Source: Candidatus Woesearchaeota archaeon (GTDB lineage Archaea; Nanobdellota; Nanobdellia; SCGC-AAA011-G17; PNOQ01). Taken from it: DNA of 64,000 nt. The translations under genes and the position numbers were made by a program. The stretch lies in assembly GCA_018652625.1 (NCBI GenBank), contig JABIBT010000021.1, forward strand, positions 14,502 through 78,501. Reading direction: 5' to 3'. The notes under the pieces were generated by a model. That model worked only from the letters and a program-made list of their open reading frames with translations. It ran no database searches and had not been told where the DNA came from. Positions 1-61,101 of the stretch are shown in pieces (within the stretch, counting starts at the first letter, position 1; each line of letters opens with the position of its first letter).

Positions 1-3000
1 TAATGTTCCTAAAATCAAATGTGAAGCTGAAGGAGGAATCCCATTTAACTCTCCAAAAGAATCGGTTCCAGAATGTCAGCTAGGCTGTTGTGATACTGGC
101 GGAGTTTGTACTGTTGTTGAAAATAATGAATGTTTGGGTAATTTTAATGCGGGGCAAACTAATCAAATATTATGTAGTCAATCTTGTTCACCAAGTCAAC
201 TTGGTTGTTGTGAAATGGTTGGAGATTGTTCGTATACTACTTTAGGACAGTGTGATATTGGGAACTCTAATGTTTTAGATTTTTATGGTGGAGAACTTTG
301 TTCTGGGGTAACTTCTTGTGCTGCAAGAGTTGATTCACATGCTTACCAAGCTTGTGGGGACAATAATTTACAAGGAGAAACAAGACATAAAATATATTTT
401 TATGATTCTGCTGGGAATAGGGAGGAGTTAGTTAAGGATTGCGAATATCCTGATGAAACTTGTGATGATCCGGATGGAAAAGGAGGAGAAATTGATGCTG
501 AATGTAGAACAACTGCTTGTGTTTTGGAAGGAGATTGTCCAGACTGTGATATTCAAGAATTTCTAAACGGTGACAGTATTTGTTTAATTTTACACGAAGG
601 ACATTTCTATAATGATGGAAGAAGTAAAGGATTGATTGAAAGAGTTTTAACTTGTAATGCTGGAGTTGTTGAATCTACTCATGATTTAGATAGGGATAAT
701 GAGGTGTGTATAGAAGGCAGTCAAACTTTTGGAGAACTTACTAGAAGAACTTCAAAAGTTATAGATAATAATTGGGGGCAGTGTAGTAGTTGTGGAAGTG
801 GATTTGATTTAGATGCATTTGCATTTTTACCATATTTGGGTGCAGGAATTGTTGCTTTAGGTTCATCTTGTCAAGAACCTATAGATTGGGATTTTGCTGG
901 AAATTGGAAATTAGGAGAAGATTGTAAAGATAGAGGCAAGGTTGGGGATGTTGAAATGTGTGAATATGATCACGATTTATATGCTCCAATTGGGTCCTGT
1001 AATCCAATTTATCCTCCTGCTATAAGTACTGAAGATCAATGTAATAAGTGCGGGGGCGGAGGAGATAGTTTTACGAATGCCTGTACGATTGAAGAGTGTA
1101 ATGCTTTAGGAGATTGTCAGTTTGAGCATAATAATTTAGATTGGAATGGTTTATACAATGCTGGCTTATTAGCTGTTGGTACAGCTACTGCAATAGTTAG
1201 TATTGGATGGGCGGTATGTTCATGGATTCCAGGATTGTGTGCAGCACCTCCTTATTGGGGAACAATTATGAATATTTTAGTTACCGGTGGTTGGTGGAGT
1301 GCAGCTTATTGGGTAGGATTTAGTTTGGTGGTTGGCCAAGGAGCAACATTGGCTAATCCAGATCCACGTTATGATTTTGCTTTTAGAAATGAAGATGATA
1401 GTATTAATTTAGCATGGGGGTTAGCTTTGTCTAATTCAATTGCAAAAGAGATTGAAGAAATTGGTTGGGTAGATCCGGGGATGAGCAGTAGAGGAACTTC
1501 TGAGGGTAGAGCACTTTTATTGGCGGTCTTAAGTGGAATTAGTAACCCAGAGACATTTAGTTCTATAGTTGGAGCATTGGCTGCCCCAATTGGTAGGAAG
1601 ATGTTGAGTTGGGGATTGGAGAGGACAATAAGGAATTATTTAAGAGATGCTGCTTTTGCTGCTACTGATCCAGCTTCTGTTATAGAAGCAGGTATTGTTA
1701 ATGCACTAAAAGGACAAAGTGGACTTAGTAGTGGGCCATTTGCGATAGGAGAGGGTGCTATGGAATATGCAGCAGAACATGCTGCCCAAGCATATGTTGG
1801 TGGGGTCGGTATAGAAACTGCTTCAGAAGTTGGAGCATTGGCAGGCAGTGAAGCTGCCGCAACAGAAACGGTAAAACAGGCAGGAAGTAAATTACTTACA
1901 GCTTTACAAATTATAGGGGCACTGGTTAGTGTTTATACTGTTGCACAAAGTTTGAATACTGGAAATTGTAGGCCAGAAGAAGCATATATAAATAATGATA
2001 GATGTGCCCAGTGTGGTGGAGGAGAAGGACAATGGGCATGTACTCCTATAAGATGTGATATTTTGGGAGGAGGAGATTCTGTTAATAATCCGATTCATTG
2101 TAAATTTTTGCCCGGAGATAGTCCAGATGAAGGGGTTTGTGAACCTTTAGACGTTGATGATACAGCTCTTCCTAACATAGTTAAGGTTGAGGCAACACTA
2201 TTTGATTCTAATGATGATTACGTTAGACAAGAAGGCCCAGTTGATTCTAATAAATTAGAGATAACTGAAAACTTTGATTGGCCAGAATTGGGAAAAATTA
2301 CTTTATCTATTGAAACTAATGAAAGGGCGAATTGTAAATATAGTAAAAATAGTGAAACAGAATATGAAAGTATGAATGCTTTTGACGTTGGAAATTATCC
2401 CTTATCTAATCATGTTAATATTACTTATACCGAAGAGGATAAATCCGAGGAAGATGTCAGAGTGTATATTAAATGTGAGGACCTTAATGGAAACAAACAC
2501 GCTAAAACAGATGATTATAATTACTTAGAAGTGCATTTCAATGAAAGGCCAGATGAATTTCCACCAGAAGTTAGAATAGTTTCTCCTGGTAATAATGTTA
2601 GATTGCCAGAGAGCACTACCCAAATAGAATGGATTATTAATGTAAAAGAAAATAATGGAATTGCTGGATGTAGATATACACAAAGTGGAGTATCAACCTA
2701 TGAAGAAATGGAATCTTCTTTTACATTAATAGGAGATGTTTCATGTATAGGAACAGATTATACTTGTACCGAATATGGAACGACTTTAAATCTGGTGGAT
2801 TTAGAGTATCTTGATATGGAAGAATTAACTGGTGTTGAAGGAGCAGGGAGGAGTTATGTTTTCAATATGAGTTGTATGGATGGAGCAGGAAATTTCAACA
2901 ATCCGCCTCTTCAAATGGGTTTTGTTGTGATACCTACTTTTGCATTAACAATATTATCTCCAATAGATGGAAGTGAATCATATGAATCAAATCCATTGAT

Positions 3001-3454
3001 AGAAGTGCAAACAGATTCATTAACACTTTGTGATTATAAAATGGATGGTCAGGAGTATAATTTTAGTGTAGATGAACCTGGATTTTATTATGATTATAGC
3101 ATCGTGCATCCTGATGCATTAAGTGGAAGTCCTTCTGGAACAAGACACACTTTAGAAGTTACTTGTACTGATGATGCATTCAATACAGTTAGTGAGTCTG
3201 TTGAATTTTATGTGATTCAAGATGTTAATGCTCCAAAATTAGTAAGCATTTATGATAAGAATAGTAAGCTATTTGTTGTTTTAGACGAAGAGGCAACTTG
3301 TACTTATCATACAAGTAATGTAGAAGAAACTCCTATGGTCCCTTCAGTAAATACGTTTAAACACCAATTAAGTTTAGATCCAGACACTTTAATTTATCAT
3401 ATTAGTTGTTTAGACGTTTGGAATAATGAATTAGCGTTTATTGTGTATGTATAA
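1..3454 (+). CDS. Giant cysteine-rich modular envelope protein; its N-terminus lies beyond the left window edge (more than 1150 aa).
   Basis: The frame is open from nt 2 to the TAA at 3452-3454. The ORF-track start at 134 is an internal TTG. Residues encoded upstream of it (ECQLGCCDTGGVCTVVENNEC) repeat the motif found after it (SQLGCCEMVGDC). The translation shows three parts: a Cys-rich N-part, a hydrophobic plus Ala/Gly-rich insert, and four C-terminal repeats of about 90-120 aa. I recognise no family. Confidence 0.6.
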   Translation, partial: NVPKIKCEAEGGIPFNSPKESVPECQLGCCDTGGVCTVVENNECLGNFNAGQTNQILCSQSCSPSQLGCCEMVGDCSYTTLGQCDIGNSNVLDFYGGELCSGVTSCAARVDSHAYQACGDNNLQGETRHKIYFYDSAGNREELVKDCEYPDETCDDPDGKGGEIDAECRTTACVLEGDCPDCDIQEFLNGDSICLILHEGHFYNDGRSKGLIERVLTCNAGVVESTHDLDRDNEVCIEGSQTFGELTRRTSKVIDNNWGQCSSCGSGFDLDAFAFLPYLGAGIVALGSSCQEPIDWDFAGNWKLGEDCKDRGKVGDVEMCEYDHDLYAPIGSCNPIYPPAISTEDQCNKCGGGGDSFTNACTIEECNALGDCQFEHNNLDWNGLYNAGLLAVGTATAIVSIGWAVCSWIPGLCAAPPYWGTIMNILVTGGWWSAAYWVGFSLVVGQGATLANPDPRYDFAFRNEDDSINLAWGLALSNSIAKEIEEIGWVDPGMSSRGTSEGRALLLAVLSGISNPETFSSIVGALAAPIGRKMLSWGLERTIRNYLRDAAFAATDPASVIEAGIVNALKGQSGLSSGPFAIGEGAMEYAAEHAAQAYVGGVGIETASEVGALAGSEAAATETVKQAGSKLLTALQIIGALVSVYTVAQSLNTGNCRPEEAYINNDRCAQCGGGEGQWACTPIRCDILGGGDSVNNPIHCKFLPGDSPDEGVCEPLDVDDTALPNIVKVEATLFDSNDDYVRQEGPVDSNKLEITENFDWPELGKITLSIETNERANCKYSKNSETEYESMNAFDVGNYPLSNHVNITYTEEDKSEEDVRVYIKCEDLNGNKHAKTDDYNYLEVHFNERPDEFPPEVRIVSPGNNVRLPESTTQIEWIINVKENNGIAGCRYTQSGVSTYEEMESSFTLIGDVSCIGTDYTCTEYGTTLNLVDLEYLDMEELTGVEGAGRSYVFNMSCMDGAGNFNNPPLQMGFVVIPTFALTILSPIDGSESYESNPLIEVQTDSLTLCDYKMDGQEYNFSVDEPGFYYDYSIVHPDALSGSPSGTRHTLEVTCTDDAFNTVSESVEFYVIQDVNAPKLVSIYDKNSKLFVVLDEEATCTYHTSNVEETPMVPSVNTFKHQLSLDPDTLIYHISCLDVWNNELAFIVYV

Positions 3455-3960
3455 TGAAAAAAAAAGGACAATTATTTGGACAACCGATTATGTATGTTTT
3501 TTACGCCGTTGTAGCTATTTTAGTTTTGGTTTTTGGTATTAGGATTGCCATACAACTAAATGAGAAAAGTGATTTACTTAAAGAAGAAATTTTTTTCAGT
3601 GACCTCGAAGAGAAATTTGATTCTGTTTATAGGGATAGTTATGGAAGTTCAATAAGTTTGATAGATTTGAAAGTCCCTTCAAATTTTATTGAACTTTGTT
3701 TTATGGATATTGGTCAGGAAAAAGATTTAAGCGAGGTTACTTTAACTAGGCTAAATGATTTAATTGATGCTTCTTATGATGCTGAAGTGGATGATAATGT
3801 TTTTGTTATTAAAGCTGATCAGAAGGACTTATCTGTTGAGATAGGGAGATATTTTGTTCTGGAGGGAAATGCTTCTGTTTTGTGTGATAAACTAACTGAT
3901 GGAAAATTAGATATTAAATTAGTTAACGAAGGACAAGTTATTAGAGCACAACATATATAA
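3454..3960 (+). CDS. Pilin-like protein with an archaeal class III (prepilin-type) signal peptide.
   Basis: The N-terminus MKKKG|QLFGQPIMYVFYAVVAILVLVFGI is a short basic leader, then G|Q, then about 22 hydrophobic residues. The ATG overlaps the upstream stop (TAATG), which suggests translational coupling. Confidence 0.65.
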   Translation: MKKKGQLFGQPIMYVFYAVVAILVLVFGIRIAIQLNEKSDLLKEEIFFSDLEEKFDSVYRDSYGSSISLIDLKVPSNFIELCFMDIGQEKDLSEVTLTRLNDLIDASYDAEVDDNVFVIKADQKDLSVEIGRYFVLEGNASVLCDKLTDGKLDIKLVNEGQVIRAQHI

Positions 3961-3983
3961 ATAACAAATCCAATTTTTTCTTT

Positions 3984-4814
3984 ATGAATAAAAAAGGACA
4001 AGGTGTTCAGTTTAATTGGATTTTTATTGTAATTGCAGGAGTTTTTGTTCTAATGTTTTTTTTGGGTTTTTTAGTTAAATATATGGATATCCAAGATTCT
4101 AAACAAAATGCCCAATATGGTTGGGATTTTAAGAACCACATTTTGGGGTTGAAAAGTACTGAACAATATAGTAATTTTTCTGCACCAAGATTTAAGATTA
4201 ATTATGATTGTGAAAATATAATTATTAATGGGGATCAAGGGTTTAGTATGCCTTACTCTATTTTTATGGAAGAGATTGATTCTGGTGAGATTTTATTTTG
4301 GGTTGAAGAATATCATAAAGGATTTTTAGTTGATAGAGTTGTTTTTATTTCTGATGCTAGCAAAAAGTATTATTTTGATGAAGAGTATAGGAGTAATATC
4401 CCTCCAAATATTAGATTGGTTTCTAGTGCTTCTAATGCTGATGTTGTTGTAAGTTCTGATCCTTTAAAAGTTGTTGATGAGCGAGATAGAAAAGAAATAT
4501 TTGTTAATAATGGAATGATTGAATTTGTCGACGATGGTGAGCGATTCCTTTATGATAATGATTTTTTTATCTATGGGGCAGCTTTTTCTAATTCTGAAAT
4601 CTTTAAGTGCACGCAAGATGATTTAGAAGAAAGATTTGATATTTTATCTGAGCTGTATATTTCTAAAATTTCTTATTTATCTTCTTCACAAAGTGCTTCG
4701 TGTACTCCATTATATAATACTCTTAGAAATGCTTTAACTTTTTCATTAACTGCTGCTGAAATAAAATCTTCAAATGATAATTTAATTAATTATGGTTGCG
4801 AGGTGGTATTTTGA
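3984..4814 (+). CDS. Pilin-like protein with a class III signal peptide (276 aa).
   Basis: The N-terminus is MNKKG|QGVQFNWIFIVIAGVFVLMFFLGF. It is on the same strand as the neighbouring pilin-like genes and tightly packed with them. Confidence 0.65.
   Translation: MNKKGQGVQFNWIFIVIAGVFVLMFFLGFLVKYMDIQDSKQNAQYGWDFKNHILGLKSTEQYSNFSAPRFKINYDCENIIINGDQGFSMPYSIFMEEIDSGEILFWVEEYHKGFLVDRVVFISDASKKYYFDEEYRSNIPPNIRLVSSASNADVVVSSDPLKVVDERDRKEIFVNNGMIEFVDDGERFLYDNDFFIYGAAFSNSEIFKCTQDDLEERFDILSELYISKISYLSSSQSASCTPLYNTLRNALTFSLTAAEIKSSNDNLINYGCEVVF
4800..4806 (+). promoter_or_regulatory. Shine-Dalgarno-like GAGGTGG serving the internal start at 4811.
   Basis: GAGGTGG lies 4 nt upstream of TTG 4811. That TTG overlaps the upstream stop (TTGA). 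Confidence 0.5.
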
Positions 4815-5263
4815 AAAGAGGACAATTACAAATACAGGAAAGTATATTTGTATTGTTTGTTTTCTTTATTATTTTAGTTATTGGCATGGTTGTTTTTTAT
4901 CAAATGGAATTTAGAAGTATTGAACGAATGAGAAAAGAAAATGAAGATGTTACTTTTTATTATTTAATATCTTATGTTCCTGCTATGCCAGAAGTAGTTT
5001 GTTCTGAAAAAGGAATTGTTGAAGAATGTATTGACTTGGTTAAGGCAAGGGCGTTTGCTAGTTACGATAATGATTATTACAGAAAAATATTTGGTAACAG
5101 GAAAATTATTTTGAATGCCGATGGAGAAAAGATAGAACTGTATGATTTTGAACCTTCTAAGTACTCTGCTGAGAGAATAATTTCAACTCCAGTTAGTGTG
5201 TATAATCCTAGAGATAAAAGTTATACTATTGGAAAATTAGAGGTGCATGATTATGAAAACTAA
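4811..5263 (+). CDS. Pilin-like protein with a class III signal peptide.
   Basis: I moved the start from the ORF-track TTG 4796 to TTG 4811. This gives MKRG|QLQIQESIFVLFVFFIILVIG, matching the short leaders of its neighbours. The SD at 4800-4806 and the TTGA overlap support this start. Confidence 0.6.
   Translation: MKRGQLQIQESIFVLFVFFIILVIGMVVFYQMEFRSIERMRKENEDVTFYYLISYVPAMPEVVCSEKGIVEECIDLVKARAFASYDNDYYRKIFGNRKIILNADGEKIELYDFEPSKYSAERIISTPVSVYNPRDKSYTIGKLEVHDYEN
5240..5245 (+). promoter_or_regulatory. Shine-Dalgarno-like GAGGTG serving the start at 5253.
   Basis: GAGGTG lies 7 nt upstream of the second ATG (5253) and only 1 nt upstream of the first ATG (5247). Confidence 0.5.
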
Positions 5264-5663
5264 AGGACAAATAGATATGTTTGGTTTGGTAATAATAGTT
5301 ATACTTATAGTTATGATTGGATTATTTTCTTTATTTTTTATTTCTCGAGGACAAATTGATGAAAGAGAAGAATATTATTCCTACAAAGCTAATAATTTTG
5401 CTAATGCGTTATCTAAATATTCTCGTGGGAATTTAAATTTTAAGGAAATGGTTTTGGAGTGTTGCACTGGAAGTAGATGTGAAGATTTGTTAGACTTTGT
5501 TGAAGATAATTTTGCTTATGTTGATGAGCCGGTTAGTTTTGAAATAGAATGTGCTAATTCTGATTATTCTGGTTCTCGAGGGAGCTGCAGTAGTGGAATT
5601 GCCTCAGAGTCCATAATTCTGCAGTCTGGGGACCTAATTCGAGTAAATTTGTGTAGAAAATAG
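5253..5663 (+). CDS. Pilin-like protein with a class III signal peptide.
   Basis: The N-terminus is MKTKG|QIDMFGLVIIVILIVMIGLFSLFFI. It overlaps the upstream gene by 11 nt. The C-terminal part contains several Cys residues. Confidence 0.6.
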   Translation: MKTKGQIDMFGLVIIVILIVMIGLFSLFFISRGQIDEREEYYSYKANNFANALSKYSRGNLNFKEMVLECCTGSRCEDLLDFVEDNFAYVDEPVSFEIECANSDYSGSRGSCSSGIASESIILQSGDLIRVNLCRK

Positions 5664-5665
5664 GC

Positions 5666-5677
5666 TTTTTTGCTTTT
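5666..5677 (+). terminator. Oligo-T terminator after the pilin-like gene set.
   Basis: TTTTTTGCTTTT begins 3 nt after the TAG at 5661-5663. Archaeal RNA polymerase terminates at oligo-T tracts. Confidence 0.45.
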
Positions 5678-5881: not shown

Positions 5882-7975
5882 ATGAAAAAATTTATTAGAA
5901 GAGTTGCTGCAGTCGGTATGGGTTCAGCTATGTTATTAGGAACATTTGGCGGAGCACTAGCGGCTAACGAGACTCTAGCAGATTTACCTGCACCATTCGT
6001 TGTGAACGAAGCATATGCTGACGTTGCAATGGTTGTTGGTTCCTTAGCTGGTACCGATGATAATGCTGCAAGATCTGCATTAAAGACATATTTCGACGGA
6101 GAAGCAACAGCTGTTGCTGGAGACACATCCTTGAGTACTGATGCCTATAATAGGGAATTCTACTATGAGTCTGAATTCAATGGAAGTACTCAATTTGGAA
6201 CAGAAGTAGACGATGAAAAAGTGGATACTTTGTATGATGGTAAAATTGACTGGGGTGACAAGTCCTATGATGTTAGAGAACTAATCAACTTTACTGGCGG
6301 AGCTAAAATTAGTACTAGTGTTAATTCGACAGGAGTGAAGGAGTTTGCCGGAGATCCATATGTAACTTTTGAATCAGGGTCTGTTAGCTATCTGTACTAC
6401 TTTGATACACTTTTTGAAGAAAATGCTTCCAGTAGTCACAATTTGAGTTCTACTACGCCTTTAGAATTTACTTTTTTAGGTAAGGATGTAAAGATATCAG
6501 ATGTAAGTACTACTGCAGATACCATTTCTTTGAATATGGCTGATGAATTTACTTTCAAAGAAGGCGAAGTACAAACCATAGAGGGAAGTTCTGTTACTGT
6601 AGGAAGTATCTTTGAATCTTCTGTAGAAGTGACTTTAGATGGTGTTACAAAAATTGTTAGTTCCGGAAGTAGCCATGATTTTGGAGACTTAACTGTTAAG
6701 GTCGACACAATTGGATATAATTCGAACAATCCAGATTTAAGTAAAACTATCTTGAATGTTGGAACTAAGATTAGTGATACTGTAAGTGATGGAGAAGTCT
6801 TTGAATTATTTACTGACTATGATCCAGATAACAATGCCCCTTGGGAATGGGAGATTAGAACAGGTAACACTGCTGCAGGACACTGGATTTCTTGGGTTGG
6901 TGTAACTTTGAGATTGGCAGCAGATGATTTAGATGTTGGAGATACAGACTCTAATCCAGATCCATTTGGAGTAGGAGGTTCATTTGTATTTCCAAATAAT
7001 TATGTAGCTATATCTTTCGATGAAACAACAGATACAAGTTATTGTAAGATAACTATTGAAGCATTGGCTGATAAAGACATAAACTCTTCTGCTGGATCTA
7101 GCGCAAACGGAGACAATACAGACTATCTTCATTTTGTTGGAGATGAAACTAATTGTTTTGCAATTGGAGGCGTAGATACTAATGCTATTTATGCTTTGGA
7201 GCGAAACGATACTTCAGTTGCTTGGGATTTGTGGTATGAAGACAGCGAGGGTATTAAGAAGAACTCTACTGAGACTACGTTTAACATAGATTGGGATGAT
7301 ACAATTATGGCAGTATCTTTTATTAATAACACTGCATCAAATCACCACTATGTCAATATCTCGAAAGACACTAACGCAGATTCTAGAGATGAAAGTATCT
7401 TTTTGAATGTGTCAAGTGGAATTCAAGAATTTGGAACAACAGAAGACTTTGATTCAGGTGAAAGAGAGGTTTTCTATTCTTGGACAACTAGGCCTCAAGG
7501 AGTTGGGATAATAGATCTTTCTGGAAGAGATTACCAAGCATTAACAATGTATGGTGTGATTATTGGAGATGACGGATCTGATGTAGAAGATGATTTAGAT
7601 GCAGATAAGGTGGTTATCCATGTGCCAAATAATCGAGCCCAAGCAGTAGTATCTATTGGTGCTGGTGCACAAGTTACTGGTGGAGCAGTTGTTGAACCTG
7701 CATTAGTTAATGATGCAAGTGCAGCAGGATATAACAACTTAATCCTTGTAGGTGGACCTTGTGTAAACGAGTTAACAGCAGATTACTTAGGACTAGATTT
7801 CCCTTCATGTGAAGGTGTTTCTGGAATACTAGAGAACAAGGCGATTGTTCAATTAGTTGAATCTGGTGGAAAAACTGCATTGATTGTAGCTGGATGGGAA
7901 GCTGCTGACACAAAGAGAGCTGCTGACACAGTTGCTGCAGGCGGATTAACAGGTGCAGACATTATCGTAGAGTAA
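5882..7975 (+). CDS. S-layer protein of the Methanococcales/Thermococcales type (S_layer_N / S_layer_C-like ends).
   Basis: There is a Sec signal peptide, MKKFIRRVAAVGMGSAMLLGTFGGALA|ANE. The N-terminal DVAMVVGSLAGTDDNAARSAL and the C-terminal NLILVGGPCVNELTADYL ... TALIVAGWEAADTKRAADTVAAG match my memory of conserved S-layer ends. The protein is acidic and rich in Thr/Ser/Asn, has about a dozen N-x-S/T sequons, and has a strong SD. Confidence 0.7.
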   Translation: MKKFIRRVAAVGMGSAMLLGTFGGALAANETLADLPAPFVVNEAYADVAMVVGSLAGTDDNAARSALKTYFDGEATAVAGDTSLSTDAYNREFYYESEFNGSTQFGTEVDDEKVDTLYDGKIDWGDKSYDVRELINFTGGAKISTSVNSTGVKEFAGDPYVTFESGSVSYLYYFDTLFEENASSSHNLSSTTPLEFTFLGKDVKISDVSTTADTISLNMADEFTFKEGEVQTIEGSSVTVGSIFESSVEVTLDGVTKIVSSGSSHDFGDLTVKVDTIGYNSNNPDLSKTILNVGTKISDTVSDGEVFELFTDYDPDNNAPWEWEIRTGNTAAGHWISWVGVTLRLAADDLDVGDTDSNPDPFGVGGSFVFPNNYVAISFDETTDTSYCKITIEALADKDINSSAGSSANGDNTDYLHFVGDETNCFAIGGVDTNAIYALERNDTSVAWDLWYEDSEGIKKNSTETTFNIDWDDTIMAVSFINNTASNHHYVNISKDTNADSRDESIFLNVSSGIQEFGTTEDFDSGEREVFYSWTTRPQGVGIIDLSGRDYQALTMYGVIIGDDGSDVEDDLDADKVVIHVPNNRAQAVVSIGAGAQVTGGAVVEPALVNDASAAGYNNLILVGGPCVNELTADYLGLDFPSCEGVSGILENKAIVQLVESGGKTALIVAGWEAADTKRAADTVAAGGLTGADIIVE

Positions 7976-11168: not shown

Positions 11169-12476
11169 TTAAAGTTTTTTCTTCTTTTTAGTTATTGTTA
11201 TGTAAGCCACTATTGCTACTATTATTATTGCAGCAATAACGATCCATGTTGTTGAGCTTCCACTTGTTTCTGCTATGTCTTCAGGACTTTCTCTAACCGG
11301 AGTTGTATCCACTGGTTCTTCAGTTTCTGTTGTATCTTCTGTAGTTGTAACTTCTTCTGGTGTAGTGTAAGCCCTAAATGTAATTTCGGCTGTACTTCCA
11401 TCAATATTATTTAGAGTTATGGTTAAATCATTTGAACCATCCTCATCTAAATCGAAGTTTTTAGTTTTTCCTACATCAATAGTTGTTGTTATTGGTGTAG
11501 AAGATACAGTTATTTTTGCAGTGTCATCATCCACAATGCTGTTTAATTTAAGACTGTGTGAGTCTCCATTGTAGTTGAAATCTACTGTTTTTCCAGTGCT
11601 TATTTCTTTTTTAGTTCCAGTTATACCAAAGTCATCAATATCTCCAAGGTCTTCGTTAGAAGATCCACTTGGACCAGAGCCAGTTCCTTCTGAAGATTCT
11701 TCTTGTGCTGTATATACATTGTATATTAGAGATGTTCCAAGCCGGTTGGTTACATTGTCGTAACAGCCTATATACCATTGTAGTGGCCTTCTCATGTAAG
11801 ATGAATTTAGCGCCACATTAAATGATTTAGTTTGTGTATTAGCTGTACTATTCAAGGCCGCTGTCCCATTGTATCCAGTTGTCCCATTTATCACCCCTCC
11901 AAAATATAAAGAACAATTAGCTACATCACTAGATTTATCTGATACATTGTATGTAAAATTCACTATTCCATCCATGTCTTCACTGTTGTGCACAGGGCTT
12001 ATTAGTACAATTACTGGTGCGTCAGCATCTACCCCAAAAGTTATATTGCCAGTCATGTTATGACTCACATTTCCACCGACAACTGCACTGTTATTTGTTC
12101 TAATCCAACAATTCCAAGACCAGTTTAGTCCAATACTATTGGGTATTGTTGTTGAAAAGTTTCTAATCACTGTGGCTCCGACTGTTCCATTTGTAGCATT
12201 TGTAGTATTCAAGTAGACAATAGGTGTACCGCTGGTAAGATTCCATACAACTAACGTTACGTTGTCTACATAATCAGTTGCATTAATTGGACTACCAGTA
12301 CAGTTAAAACCAAGGGTTGTAGTATTACTCCAGTTTCCTGCACTAACACCTTCTCCTTCACCAAGAGTGTAATTTAACCTAACCTCTTTTACTCCGGTTC
12401 CTAACCCTGTGTTTACACCATATAGCAAAACAATAAGAGCCATTATAACAATAACACCTCTCTTTATATTCACCAT
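11169..12476 (-). CDS. Secreted, C-terminally anchored surface protein with extreme N-glycosylation sequon density.
   Basis: It has an N-terminal signal/TM segment (VIVIMALIVLLYGV). By hand count there are 24 N-x-S/T sequons in the first ~245 aa. A Thr/Glu/Pro linker follows, then the C-terminal TM WIVIAAIIIVAIVAYITI and a KKKKKL tail. Confidence 0.6.
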   Translation of the reverse strand: MVNIKRGVIVIMALIVLLYGVNTGLGTGVKEVRLNYTLGEGEGVSAGNWSNTTTLGFNCTGSPINATDYVDNVTLVVWNLTSGTPIVYLNTTNATNGTVGATVIRNFSTTIPNSIGLNWSWNCWIRTNNSAVVGGNVSHNMTGNITFGVDADAPVIVLISPVHNSEDMDGIVNFTYNVSDKSSDVANCSLYFGGVINGTTGYNGTAALNSTANTQTKSFNVALNSSYMRRPLQWYIGCYDNVTNRLGTSLIYNVYTAQEESSEGTGSGPSGSSNEDLGDIDDFGITGTKKEISTGKTVDFNYNGDSHSLKLNSIVDDDTAKITVSSTPITTTIDVGKTKNFDLDEDGSNDLTITLNNIDGSTAEITFRAYTTPEEVTTTEDTTETEEPVDTTPVRESPEDIAETSGSSTTWIVIAAIIIVAIVAYITITKKKKKL

Positions 12477-60222: not shown

Positions 60223-61101
60223 TTATACTGGACAGGTTCCTACAAAAGTAGCACAGTCAATGTTTTGTCCGTAATAAGAACCAAAGCATACTTGATCTAT
60301 TTCACCAATACAACAATCTTGGTTGAAATCTGCTTTCCAATATTGTTCAAAGTTTTCTGGAGAGGTTTCGTAACATAAAGCCATTCCCATGCCTAAATAC
60401 ATCATATCTTCGAAGTTAACTACTCCGTCTTCAATTCCTTCTGGTCCGGTCATATCTGGACAGAACGGTCTAGTGAATCCCCCACATAATGGTGGCTCTT
60501 CTGGTACTTCTATGCCCTCTTCAACTCCAGTTATTAATAAACCTTTTTTTGTGTGGCTTATTCCTTCAGCAGTTAAAGAATATTCAAAAACAAGTTCTCC
60601 CTTGAATTTACTTCCCTTTGTTTCACTAATTATGCAATTATCTGAGCTCCACCTTGAAGAAGCCCCATTGGAAAGAGCATTTGAACCAGAGCAACCCTCT
60701 GTACAGGTTAAGATACATAATGTTGCTTTAGTATCTGGATCTGCTAAACTAATTGATATGTCATTCAAATTTTGACCCTGCCCATTTAGTATATTTATTT
60801 CTACTTGTCCAGTTTCTGTGATTCTAAAATCTTCACAATCAATTCCAGGGACTATTGTACAGCTTGCTGGAATTATGTTAGCAGAATCTAAAACGCCAAA
60901 ATATGCTAGTGCTCCGATTGCAGCCATTACTACTAAAATTGCCCAACCGTAAGTCATCAAGAATTCCATAGAGGCTTGTCCGCCCCTTTTTACCTTTTCT
61001 TTTAACCTGTTTTTATATGCTATTTTTATGGCTTCCTTTGCCCATTTGGGTAAACCGTTATAAGTACGTCTTTTTATTCCATGGATTGTATTGGTAACCA
61101 C
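60223..61101 (-). CDS. Type IV pilin-like protein (class III signal, Glu at +5) with a long basic leader and a Cys-rich C-terminal domain.
   Basis: KRGG|QASMEFLMTYGWAILVVMAAIGALAYF is the canonical archaeal pilin N-terminus. The only in-frame start upstream of it is GTG 61101, which gives a 41-aa leader. That start has a TATA box 30 nt upstream. Confidence 0.7.
   Translation of the reverse strand: MVTNTIHGIKRRTYNGLPKWAKEAIKIAYKNRLKEKVKRGGQASMEFLMTYGWAILVVMAAIGALAYFGVLDSANIIPASCTIVPGIDCEDFRITETGQVEINILNGQGQNLNDISISLADPDTKATLCILTCTEGCSGSNALSNGASSRWSSDNCIISETKGSKFKGELVFEYSLTAEGISHTKKGLLITGVEEGIEVPEEPPLCGGFTRPFCPDMTGPEGIEDGVVNFEDMMYLGMGMALCYETSPENFEQYWKADFNQDCCIGEIDQVCFGSYYGQNIDCATFVGTCPV

What the first reader, a model, noticed from the sequence alone, without database searches (positions are those of the whole stretch)
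3454..5663. Four tandem KG|Q class-III-signal (pilin-like) genes using SD-coupled overlapping starts, with no assembly ATPase or platform nearby
Seen: four consecutive ORFs begin with a short basic leader, then G|Q, then ~20 hydrophobic residues (MKKKG|Q, MNKKG|Q, MKRG|Q, MKTKG|Q).
- Two of these N-termini appear only after moving the ORF-track starts to TTG 4811 and ATG 5253.
- Each of those two starts is preceded by GAGGTG(G) and overlaps the upstream gene.
- Their mature parts are unrelated in length (168-276 aa) and none has Glu at +5. The separate pilin at 60223-61101 does have Glu at +5.
Established: archaeal type IV pilin-like proteins are cleaved after the Gly by a prepilin peptidase. 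The Gln at +1 is typical of the EppA-processed DUF361-type pilins of methanogens.
Inference: these are a set of minor-pilin or pseudopilin-like subunits, and the major pilin may be the one at 60.2 kb. No PilB/PilC-type genes lie in this window, so the machinery must be encoded elsewhere or be unusual.
Basis: partly seen in the sequence, partly recalled or inferred. Interest (0 to 1): 0.6.

Follow-up and report, generated by a model that had tools for sequence, protein, structure and literature searches.

The report
Conserved pilin-like operon of Woesearchaeota
The four genes are real type-IV-pilin-like genes, part of a six-gene operon (five pilin-like proteins plus a giant cysteine-rich membrane protein) kept in the same order in about 90% of sampled Woesearchaeota-type archaea, with no described family or function, and probably a surface contact apparatus.

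Summary
Window 3454-5663 encodes four proteins (168, 276, 150 and 136 aa). Each has a short basic leader, then G|Q, then about 20 hydrophobic residues. The revised starts TTG 4811 and ATG 5253 are supported by SD spacing and by orthologues.

- A fifth such gene lies just upstream of the window, with the start of the giant protein, so the unit is P0-giant-P1-P2-P3-P4.
- The order is conserved across Candidatus Woesearchaeota. The P2 profile hits 227 of 251 sampled genomes of the phylum.
- [KR]-[G/A/S]-Q is almost invariant in all five families.

AlphaFold models of P2 and P3 (pLDDT 93 and 95) show a 47-57-residue N-terminal helix followed by beta strands, the pilin layout. Neither has a PDB fold match, a Pfam hit or a source name.

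The machinery is encoded elsewhere in the genome: one A24 peptidase, and ATPase plus platform loci on contigs C17 and C22.

Best reading: a stoichiometric minor-pilin-type complex coupled to a membrane-anchored giant surface protein. Its function (host or cell contact) is inferred.

This scan has already found the same operon in at least eight other genomes. I found no paper describing it.

The parts
2..3454 (+). Giant Cys-rich protein, C-terminal 1150 of 1247 aa. The gene starts at G000:C32:14212, upstream of the window. It has a Sec-type N-terminal hydrophobic segment, 60 Cys, two weakly hydrophobic segments (aa 484-512 and 727-746) flanking a Cys-poor stretch of about 215 aa, and a C-terminal Ig-like region.
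   Evidence: There is no Pfam, NCBIfam or PDB match apart from a sub-threshold Big_7 hit. Its stop TAA overlaps the P1 ATG by 1 nt (TAATG at 3452-3456).
3454..3960 (+). P1, 168-aa pilin-like protein, MKKKG|QLFGQP followed by a hydrophobic helix. Family signature: Q at +1 and Q at +5.
   Evidence: In 62 orthologues, -2 is K/R in 58, -1 is G/A/S in 57, +1 is Q in 54 and +5 is Q in 56. No Pfam, NCBIfam or PDB hit.
3953..3964 (+). TATA-like ATATATAAATAA about 30 nt upstream of the P2 ATG. A possible internal promoter giving a leaderless P2-P3-P4 transcript (inference only).
   Evidence: Sequence. The spacing matches the TATA-to-ATG distance upstream of P0.
3984..4814 (+). P2, 276-aa pilin-like protein, MNKKG|QGVQFNWIF. 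It has four near-invariant Cys (76, 209, 240, 272). The predicted helix 12-58 is followed by a beta domain and a C-terminal helical bundle.
   Evidence: pLDDT 93, pTM 0.85. QFN at +4 to +6 is invariant in 70 of 70 sequences. No PDB fold match at E<1. Homologues carry no Pfam domain and are named 'hypothetical protein'.
4800..4806 (+). Shine-Dalgarno GAGGTGG, 4 nt before TTG 4811, inside the end of P2.
   Evidence: Sequence. It is conserved as the ...RGGIL... reading of the upstream frame in orthologues.
4811..5263 (+). P3, 150-aa pilin-like protein with a TTG start, KRG|QLQIQES. E at +6 is nearly invariant. The predicted helix 2-58 is followed by six beta strands (lollipop pilin layout).
   Evidence: pLDDT 95.4. 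-1 is G/A/S in 68 of 68, +1 is Q in 63 of 68 and +6 is E in 67 of 68. The family has 1510 representatives at 50% identity. No PDB fold match.
5240..5245 (+). Shine-Dalgarno GAGGTG, 7 nt before ATG 5253.
   Evidence: Sequence.
5253..5663 (+). P4, 136-aa pilin-like protein, MKTKG|QIDMFGL. The acidic residue at +3 and G at +6 are invariant. Six Cys.
   Evidence: +1 is Q in 58 of 58, +3 is E/D in 58 of 58 and +6 is G in 58 of 58.
5664..5677 (+). Oligo-T run GCTTTTTTGCTTTT directly after the P4 stop. Likely the archaeal transcription terminator that ends the operon.
   Evidence: Sequence; inference.
5882..7975 (+). S-layer protein gene, a separate transcription unit downstream. Its adjacency to the operon is conserved in the window's family and several others, but not in all lineages.
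   Evidence: Pfam S_layer_C, E 2.9e-8. Synteny: 17 of 18 loci; 18 of 44 more distant loci by tblastn.
60223..61101 (-). Separate DUF361/Epd-like class III protein (...KRGG|QASMEFLMTYGWAILVV). The true start is probably internal. It is a candidate fibre subunit, but no link to the operon has been shown.

Best explanation
The four genes are the distal part of a six-gene operon: P0, giant, P1, P2, P3, P4. The operon starts upstream of the window at a TATA box and ends at an oligo-T run after P4.

What the proteins are:
- P0 and P1-P4 belong to five unrelated families. They share only a class III (prepilin-type) signal and a long hydrophobic N-terminal helix.
- They are most likely cleaved after the G/A/S by the genome's single A24 aspartic peptidase.
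- They most likely assemble through their alpha-1 helices, helped by one of the ATPase/TadC motors encoded elsewhere.

How they most likely work:
- Tight translational coupling implies roughly equal amounts of each. I therefore read them as a defined minor-pilin-type hetero-complex (a short pseudopilus or priming stub), not a bulk fibre.
- The complex is physically coupled to the giant, disulfide-rich protein. That protein is Sec-exported and appears to stay anchored in the membrane.
- P0 always directly precedes a giant gene and is the likely adaptor between the two.
- The complex would hold the giant ectodomains at or through the S-layer, as a cell-surface contact or attachment device of these small, probably host-dependent archaea.

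Shown: the gene structure, the signal conservation, the pilin-like architecture of P2 and P3, the synteny, and the presence of the peptidase and motors.
Inferred: cleavage, complex formation, the link to the giant protein, and the function.
For: Operon structure:
- P0 has TTTATATATT 30 nt before its ATG.
- Gene junctions: P0/giant overlap 7 nt, giant/P1 overlap 1 nt, P2/P3 overlap 4 nt, P3/P4 overlap 11 nt.
- SD sequences occur only before the internal genes P3 and P4.
- A T-run follows P4.

Class III signal:
- -2 K/R, -1 G/A/S and +1 Q are nearly invariant in orthologues that are only 20-30% identical, in all five families.
- Five of the genome's eight [KR][GAS]Q N-termini sit in this cluster.

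Architecture:
- AF2 models: P2 has pLDDT 93 with helix 12-58; P3 has pLDDT 95 with helix 2-58 followed by beta strands.
- The five families share only their N-terminal 30-80 residues, as different pilin families do.
- Conserved Cys pairs point to extracellular domains.

Conservation:
- The same gene order is seen in 18 loci from at least 12 families and in 80 further Woesearchaeota loci, including the complete AR20 genome.
- The P2 profile hits 227 of 251 genomes and 175 of 192 genera, mostly as a single copy.

Machinery:
- The peptidase has D20 and GGAD82.
- ATPase plus two TadC genes lie on each of C17 and C22.
- 224 of 227 P2-positive genomes have an A24 peptidase, and the three exceptions are assemblies of 60-130 contigs. 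The one closed genome without the peptidase also lacks P2.

Giant protein:
- The gene upstream of P1 is always a 940-2450-aa protein with 34-226 Cys. Where the 5' end is on the contig, it has a Sec-type signal.
- In distant lineages it has one strong TM helix followed by a Lys-rich tail.
- In this genome it has two weak TM segments flanking a Cys-poor loop.
- A P0-type gene abuts a giant gene wherever it is found, including a second cassette at C10:27513-35067.

Sequon depletion:
- The six proteins have 5 N-x-S/T sequons against 15.9 expected from composition (1 of 2000 shuffles as low).
- The depletion holds in P0, P1, P2 and P4 orthologues.
- The neighbouring S-layer protein has more sequons than expected (12 against 7.2).
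- This fits buried, tightly packed surfaces rather than an exposed glycosylated fibre.
Against: - No experimental data exist on cleavage, assembly or localisation.
- There is no sequence or fold match to any solved pilin. 'Pilin-like' therefore rests on the signal and on overall architecture.
- The TM predictions for this genome's giant protein come from a simple hydropathy scale and are borderline (1.65-1.8).
- No motor gene is linked to the operon in any genome examined. In five (near-)closed relatives the nearest ATPase is more than 100 kb away.
- The peptidase is near-universal in the phylum, so its co-occurrence with the operon has little discriminating power.
- Complex formation could not be tested.
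Confidence: 0.55

Rival explanations
1. Tip or priming complex of a long Epd-like pilus. P0-P4 would be the minor pilins that start assembly and sit at the tip of a fibre built from a DUF361-type major pilin (such as window 60223-61101 or C27:2205). The giant protein would be a PilY1-like tip adhesin carried outward on that fibre.
For: - The gene logic is the same as bacterial fimU-pilVWXY1E or gspHIJK: several different low-abundance pilins plus one large non-pilin in one operon.
- DUF361-like pilins and two motor loci with paired platform genes ('system 1' style) exist in the genome (PMC13705601).
- Only some of the subunits keep an acidic residue near the N-terminus.
Against: - The giant protein has predicted TM anchors in all lineages examined, unlike PilY1.
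- There is no Pfam or fold similarity to GspH-K, PilV-X or PilY1.
- No evidence links any major pilin to this set.
- Sequon depletion is unlike the exposed, usually N-glycosylated archaeal pilins (my own knowledge).
Confidence: 0.25
2. Housekeeping envelope module. The pilin-like proteins and the giant protein would anchor, space or locally open the S-layer, in the way ArlF/ArlG anchor the archaellum to the S-layer. They would not mediate contact with other cells.
For: - Near-universal, mostly single-copy distribution (227 of 251 genomes) is more typical of core envelope genes than of accessory adhesins.
- The S-layer gene lies directly downstream in this and many other families.
- Published archaeal T4F loci often contain S-layer-like proteins thought to prime the wall (PMC13705601, PMC4858521).
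Against: - S-layer adjacency was detected in only 18 of 44 more distant loci.
- The S-layer gene is a separate transcription unit with its own promoter, following a T-run.
- For obligate symbionts an attachment device would also be core, so universality does not separate the two readings.
Confidence: 0.15
3. Ordinary N-terminally anchored (type II) membrane proteins. The KGQ motif would be incidental and uncleaved, with no relation to type IV filament machinery.
For: - No experimental cleavage data exist.
- There is no match to any pilin family model.
Against: - -1 G/A/S and +1 Q are held almost invariant in five unrelated families across a whole phylum, while the rest of the proteins diverge to 20-25% identity.
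- The other 91 N-terminally hydrophobic ORFs of the genome lack the motif.
- The helix-plus-beta architecture is pilin-like.
- The peptidase is present.
Confidence: 0.05

Closest known systems
Epd pili of Methanococcus maripaludis and archaeal T4F 'system 1' (EppA-processed pilins with Gln at +1)
   Same: - Short basic leader, with cleavage predicted after Gly and Gln at +1.
- Several different minor pilins.
- Motor loci with two platform genes in the same genome.
- DPANN genomes are reported to carry system-1-type pilins with scattered loci (PMC13705601).
   Different: - There is no DUF361/Class_IIIsignal match and no QxSxE motif in P0-P4.
- The set is not next to an ATPase, platform or dedicated peptidase gene.
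- It is coupled to a giant Cys-rich membrane protein that has no Epd counterpart.
- Each of the five families has its own N-terminal signature.
Bacterial minor-pilin priming or tip complexes (GspH-I-J-K; FimU-PilV-W-X with PilY1; ComGD-G)
   Same: - An operon of four to five dissimilar low-abundance pilins, translationally coupled, together with one very large non-pilin protein.
- Only some subunits keep an N-terminal acidic residue.
   Different: - No homology is detectable by sequence or fold.
- The acidic residue is at +3 or +6, not +5.
- The giant protein is predicted to be membrane-anchored, not a soluble beta-propeller adhesin.
- This is an analogy only.
Bindosome (Bas) system of Saccharolobus solfataricus, and class-III-signal substrate-binding proteins
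   Same: Class III signal proteins are used to build a cell-envelope-associated assembly rather than a long fibre, and depend on a T4F-type motor (PMC3047682, PMC13705601).
   Different: - There are no solute-binding domains and no neighbouring ABC transporter.
- The partner here is a giant Cys-rich protein.
- The lineage is different.
Thermoproteales T4P loci (subclade 4E) described by Makarova et al. 2016
   Same: These are loci with one or two large proteins plus several small putative minor pilins, almost all with multiple conserved cysteines (PMC4858521).
   Different: - Those loci include the ATPase and TadC.
- No sequence relationship was tested or found here.
- The taxon is different.

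Membership tests
Archaeal class III signal (type IV pilin-like) proteins | Short positively charged leader ending in [KR]-[G/A/S], followed at once by about 20 hydrophobic residues | tested here: met
   All four window proteins and P0 show it. In orthologue alignments, -2 is K/R in 93-100% of sequences and -1 is G/A/S in 90-100%.
Archaeal class III signal (type IV pilin-like) proteins | A24 (FlaK/PibD/EppA-type) aspartic prepilin peptidase in the same genome | tested here: met
   PF01478 at C6:8600-8920, a 292-aa ORF with D20 and GGAD82. It is present in 224 of 227 P2-positive genomes.
Archaeal class III signal (type IV pilin-like) proteins | Long N-terminal alpha-helix followed by a beta-rich globular domain | tested here: met
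   AF2 models: P2 has helix 12-58 then strands (pLDDT 93); P3 has helix 2-58 then six strands (pLDDT 95). P0, P1 and P4 were not modelled.
Archaeal class III signal (type IV pilin-like) proteins | Actual cleavage of the leader and incorporation into a filament or pseudopilus | not testable with these tools
   This needs N-terminal proteomics, a processing assay or imaging.
Archaeal class III signal (type IV pilin-like) proteins | VirB11-type ATPase and TadC/FlaJ platform in the genome | tested here: met
   T2SSE on C17, C22, C33 and C35; T2SSF, two each, on C17 and C22. None is near the operon.
DUF361 / Pfam Class_IIIsignal (Epd-type pilins) | Match to the family model, with the N-terminal QxSxExxxL motif | tested here: not met
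   No Pfam or NCBIfam hit at E<1. The residues at +3 and +5 are F/Q, V/F, Q/Q and D/F. The motif is present instead in window 60223-61101 and C27:2205.
Bacterial core minor pilins (GspH/I/J/K, FimU/PilV/W/X) and PilY1 | Sequence or fold similarity to these families; Glu at +5 in all but the K/X-type subunit; a large partner that is a soluble beta-propeller adhesin | tested here: not met
   No Pfam hits. No Foldseek PDB match at E<0.1 for P2 or P3. No E at +5. The giant protein has predicted TM segments.
Archaellum stator-like proteins ArlF/ArlG | Uncleaved N-terminal anchor, an archaellin-like beta-sandwich, and a gene inside an archaellum operon | tested here: not met
   A conserved cleavage-type motif is present. 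There are no archaellum genes nearby. No fold match.

The most novel reading that the evidence does not exclude
The operon encodes a previously undescribed, lineage-defining envelope machine of Woese-/Pacearchaeota-type Nanoarchaeia. It would be a short pseudopilus of five dedicated pilin families, driven by a remote T4F motor, that erects or moves a giant, disulfide-rich, membrane-anchored protein through the S-layer. That would make it the primary device by which these ultra-small archaea dock onto, and perhaps exchange material with, host cells.
Probability: 0.25. Interest if true: 0.85.

Novelty: new variant of a known kind. Interest (0 to 1): 0.6.

Why it matters
Woesearchaeota and their relatives are among the most abundant uncultured archaea, with genomes of 0.5-1.5 Mb. 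They are thought to depend on other cells, but how they attach to them is unknown.

- A recent census of archaeal type IV filament systems (PMC13705601) found only scattered components in DPANN archaea and left open whether they build anything.
- An earlier census could not identify cognate pilins in nanoarchaea (PMC4858521).
- This operon supplies a concrete, near-universal set of five unnamed pilin-like families plus a giant surface protein.
- Two of those families give high-confidence structure models with no PDB fold match.
- Together these are specific targets for proteomics, antibodies, cryo-ET and heterologous processing assays.
- The operon is also a useful genomic marker of the lineage.

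Tried and rejected
- **Family libraries.** Pfam and NCBIfam scans of all cluster proteins gave nothing above threshold.
- **PDB by sequence.** Profile or sequence searches for P0-P4 and the giant protein gave nothing significant. The best pilin-related line was Thermus PilA5 at E 0.94.
- **PDB by fold.** Foldseek searches with the P2 and P3 models gave no match at E<0.1. I therefore cannot claim fold homology to solved pilins.
- **Relationship between families.** Profile-profile comparison showed they share only the N-terminal segment, so the five are not recent paralogues.
- **Phyletic test.** Ten P2-negative genomes were checked for the peptidase and nine keep it. Loss of the operon therefore does not track loss of the peptidase. 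The test is informative only in the other direction.
- **S-layer linkage.** This is strong in the window's relatives. Single-sequence tblastn detected it in only 18 of 44 distant loci. I therefore did not make the S-layer gene part of the unit.
- **Giant protein as a modular pilin.** Rejected. Its orthologues start with Sec-type signals, not KGQ.
- **Literature.** Searches for Woesearchaeota or DPANN with pilin, class III signal or giant Cys-rich proteins found no description of this operon.

Full report
**1. The observation**

The window carries four consecutive same-strand ORFs:
- P1, 3454-3960, 168 aa, MKKKG|QLFGQP...
- P2, 3984-4814, 276 aa, MNKKG|QGVQFNWIF...
- P3, 150 aa from TTG 4811, (M)KRG|QLQIQES...
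- P4, 136 aa from ATG 5253, MKTKG|QIDMFGL...

Each has about 20 hydrophobic residues after the Gln.

The two revised starts hold up.
- GAGGTGG (4800-4806) lies 4 nt before TTG 4811, and that TTG overlaps the P2 stop as TTGA.
- GAGGTG (5240-5245) lies 7 nt before ATG 5253, but only 1 nt before the ORF-track ATG 5247.
- Orthologues agree. One P3 orthologue's frame opens directly with MKRGQ, and P4 orthologues begin M-x-x-[KR]-G-Q.

None of the four has Glu at +5. The separate ORF at 60223-61101 reads ...KRGG|QASMEFLMTYGWAILVV, so it has E at +5.

As a control I listed 676 non-nested ORFs of at least 100 aa in the genome. Of these, 99 have an N-terminal hydrophobic stretch, only 8 carry [KR][GAS]Q in the first 30 residues, and 5 of those 8 lie in this cluster.

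**2. The real unit is larger than the finding**

The window is G000:C32:14502-78501 of a 658-kb, 36-contig, 31% G+C genome. Upstream of the window:
- A fifth gene of the same kind, P0, lies at C32:13346-14218 (290 aa, MQKRG|QVTIFIILG).
- The giant protein starts at C32:14212 and is 1247 aa in all.

The signals of an operon are all present:
- P0 has TTTATATATT 30 nt before its ATG. This fits a leaderless first gene, as noted for other genes of this window.
- P0/giant overlap by 7 nt and giant/P1 overlap by 1 nt.
- P1-P2 are 23 nt apart, with a TATA-like ATATATAAAT about 30 nt before the P2 ATG.
- P2/P3 overlap by 4 nt and P3/P4 by 11 nt.
- An oligo-T run (GCTTTTTTGCTTTT) follows the P4 stop.

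The S-layer gene (5882-7975; Pfam S_layer_C) is a separate unit downstream.

**3. Conservation**

- P2 alone finds homologues in 114 of 151 genomes of the same order.
- In 18 loci from at least 12 families, tblastn recovers P0, giant, P1, P2, P3, P4 and usually the S-layer protein, in the same order and on the same strand.
- A pattern scan of GTDB species genomes gave 233 confirmed loci. Most of the 80 kept loci are titled Candidatus Woesearchaeota, Nanoarchaeota or Nanoarchaeia. They include the complete genome GW2011_AR20, CP010426.1.
- In the 80 kept loci the order P1-P2-P3-P4 is nearly invariant.
- A P2 profile hits 227 of 251 genomes sampled across the phylum (175 of 192 genera), almost always once.
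- A P3 profile finds 1510 cluster representatives at 50% identity in 1.84 billion proteins, all 150-300 aa in the best 150 listed.
- No homologue has a Pfam domain or any name other than 'hypothetical protein'. The window's own P2 was gene-called 23 residues short, which removes the signal.

**4. The class III signal is under selection**

The orthologues are otherwise only 20-30% identical, yet the signal positions are kept.

| Family | -2 K/R | -1 G/A/S | +1 Q | Other near-invariant positions |
|---|---|---|---|---|
| P0 | 28/28 | 28/28 | 28/28 | T/S at +3, 28/28 |
| P1 | 58/62 | 57/62 | 54/62 | Q at +5, 56/62 |
| P2 | 68/70 | 63/70 | 32/70 | QFN at +4 to +6, 70/70 |
| P3 | 65/68 | 68/68 | 63/68 | E at +6, 67/68 |
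| P4 | 57/58 | 58/58 | 58/58 | D/E at +3 and G at +6, 58/58 each |

G, A or S at -1 after a basic residue is the established recognition rule for archaeal prepilin peptidases (my own knowledge of FlaFind-type rules). Gln at +1 is the feature of EppA substrates in Methanococcus (PMC3875500, PMC4390842).

The five families share only their first 30-80 residues in profile-profile comparison, as unrelated pilin families do.

**5. Structure**

- The AlphaFold2 model of P2 (70-sequence alignment) has mean pLDDT 93 and pTM 0.85. It shows helix 12-58, a beta domain and a C-terminal helical bundle.
- The model of P3 (68 sequences) has pLDDT 95.4. It shows helix 2-58 followed by six strands.

This is the lollipop layout of type IV pilins.

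Foldseek against the PDB gives no match at E<0.1 for either model. PDB sequence profiles give nothing. 'Pilin-like' is therefore an architectural statement, not demonstrated fold homology.

Conserved Cys pairs in every family point to extracellular domains: P2 has C76/C209/C240/C272, P3 has C65/C73, and P1 and P4 have theirs too.

**6. Machinery**

The genome has:
- One A24 peptidase: C6, 292 aa, with D20 and GGAD82, about the spacing I recall for FlaK/PibD-type enzymes.
- Four VirB11-type ATPases.
- Two ATPase + 2xTadC loci, on C17 and C22.

None of these is on contig C32. In five closed or nearly closed relatives the single peptidase and the 3-4 ATPases lie more than 100 kb from the operon. 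This matches the published statement that in DPANN archaea the ATPase and platform are adjacent while pilins are scattered (PMC13705601).

- 224 of 227 P2-positive genomes have the peptidase.
- The three exceptions are assemblies of 60-130 contigs.
- The only closed genome without the peptidase (0.5 Mb) also lacks P2.
- Nine of ten P2-negative genomes keep the peptidase, so the association is one-directional.

**7. The giant protein**

- In all 18 of the 20 distant loci examined in which P1 was called, the gene upstream of P1 encodes a 940-2450-aa protein with 34-226 Cys. Where the N-terminus is on the contig, it has a Sec-type signal, not a KGQ leader.
- In distant lineages a hydropathy scan finds one strong TM helix 150-300 residues before a Lys-rich C-terminus.
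- In AR20 there is a central TM hairpin.
- In this genome two weaker segments (484-512 and 727-746) flank a stretch of about 215 aa that holds about 2 of the 60 Cys.
- I infer a membrane-anchored protein with large disulfide-rich ectodomains. The hydropathy scale is crude and this needs a proper topology predictor.
- P0-type genes abut a giant gene wherever they were found, and this genome has a second such cassette at C10:27513-35067. This suggests that P0 is the adaptor between the pilin set and the giant protein.

**8. A new side observation: sequon depletion**

- The six proteins contain 5 N-x-S/T sequons against 15.9 +/- 3.7 expected from their composition (1 of 2000 shuffles is as low).
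- The S-layer protein has 12 against 7.2 expected.
- Depletion holds in orthologues of P2 (61 against 204), P1 (34 against 68), P0 (16 against 50) and P4 (45 against 68), but not P3.
- The orthologues are not independent of each other. Even so, this differs from archaeal pilins and archaellins, which are usually N-glycosylated (my own knowledge).
- It fits buried, tightly packed surfaces.

**9. Interpretation**

The best-supported reading is a stoichiometric, minor-pilin-type hetero-complex. It would be processed by the A24 peptidase, assembled by a remote motor, and coupled through P0 to a membrane-anchored giant surface protein.

- Whether it is a short pseudopilus or the tip of a long Epd-like fibre is open. 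The TM anchors and the sequon depletion favour the former.
- Function (cell or host contact, or an S-layer-related role) is inference only.
- Multimer prediction and transcript mapping, the two computations that would help most, were not available.

**10. Prior knowledge**

- Three literature searches found no description of this operon.
- The two archaeal T4F censuses either lacked these genomes or reported only scattered, unassigned components (PMC4858521, PMC13705601).
- Within this scan the same operon has already been reported from at least eight other genomes, with similar conclusions. My analysis is consistent with those notes.
- This report adds the phylum-wide peptidase co-occurrence test, per-position signal statistics, two high-confidence models with negative fold searches, the topology argument for the giant protein, and the sequon depletion.

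Noticed in passing
G000:C10:27513-35067 (outside the window): A second cassette of the same design. A 658-aa P0-type protein (MQKRG|QVTIYIILG) directly precedes, with overlap, a protein of at least 1860 aa with a Sec signal and 24 Cys that runs off the contig end.
   Followed up: partly
window 2-5663 plus C32:13346-14501: The six operon proteins are depleted in N-glycosylation sequons: 5 observed against 15.9 expected from composition. The neighbouring S-layer protein has more than expected (12 against 7.2), and the surface protein at 11169-12476 has 24 sequons in 435 aa. The depletion recurs in P0, P1, P2 and P4 orthologues.
   Followed up: partly
window 3984-4814: The public gene call for this protein is 253 aa and starts 23 codons downstream, so the class III signal is missing from the deposited product. 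Automated annotation probably hides this family's N-termini.
   Followed up: partly
G000:C17:22680-29257: One T4F motor locus (a 581-aa ATPase plus two TadC genes) is followed on the same strand by four consecutive CheY-like receiver genes and further signalling-type genes. This suggests two-component control of a pilus motor in a 0.66-Mb genome.
   Followed up: no
G000:C22:18916-23577: The other motor locus (ATPase plus two TadC genes) carries two pilin-like genes of its own, with KRG|L and KRG|F leaders and no Gln at +1. The genome therefore has at least two differently signed pilin sets.
   Followed up: no
G000:C26:715-4039: A small contig is filled with about seven short same-strand genes with N-terminal hydrophobic helices. 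Two have MKKRG|Q or MKKRG|S leaders. They resemble the extra pilin-like genes that follow P4 in longer versions of the operon in other Woesearchaeota.
   Followed up: no
L001:1-957 (-), G000:C6, next to the A24 peptidase gene: A 319-aa ORF starting MFFMNKRG|NDPKIQGLIILIAILIIL lies divergently beside the prepilin peptidase gene. It is another candidate substrate.
   Followed up: no
L033 (G001:C1:396000-416000) and L034, L036: In some families a second giant Cys-rich gene is inserted between P2 and P3, or duplicated upstream. The giant gene is therefore the mobile or duplicating element of the operon, while the pilin order stays fixed.
   Followed up: partly
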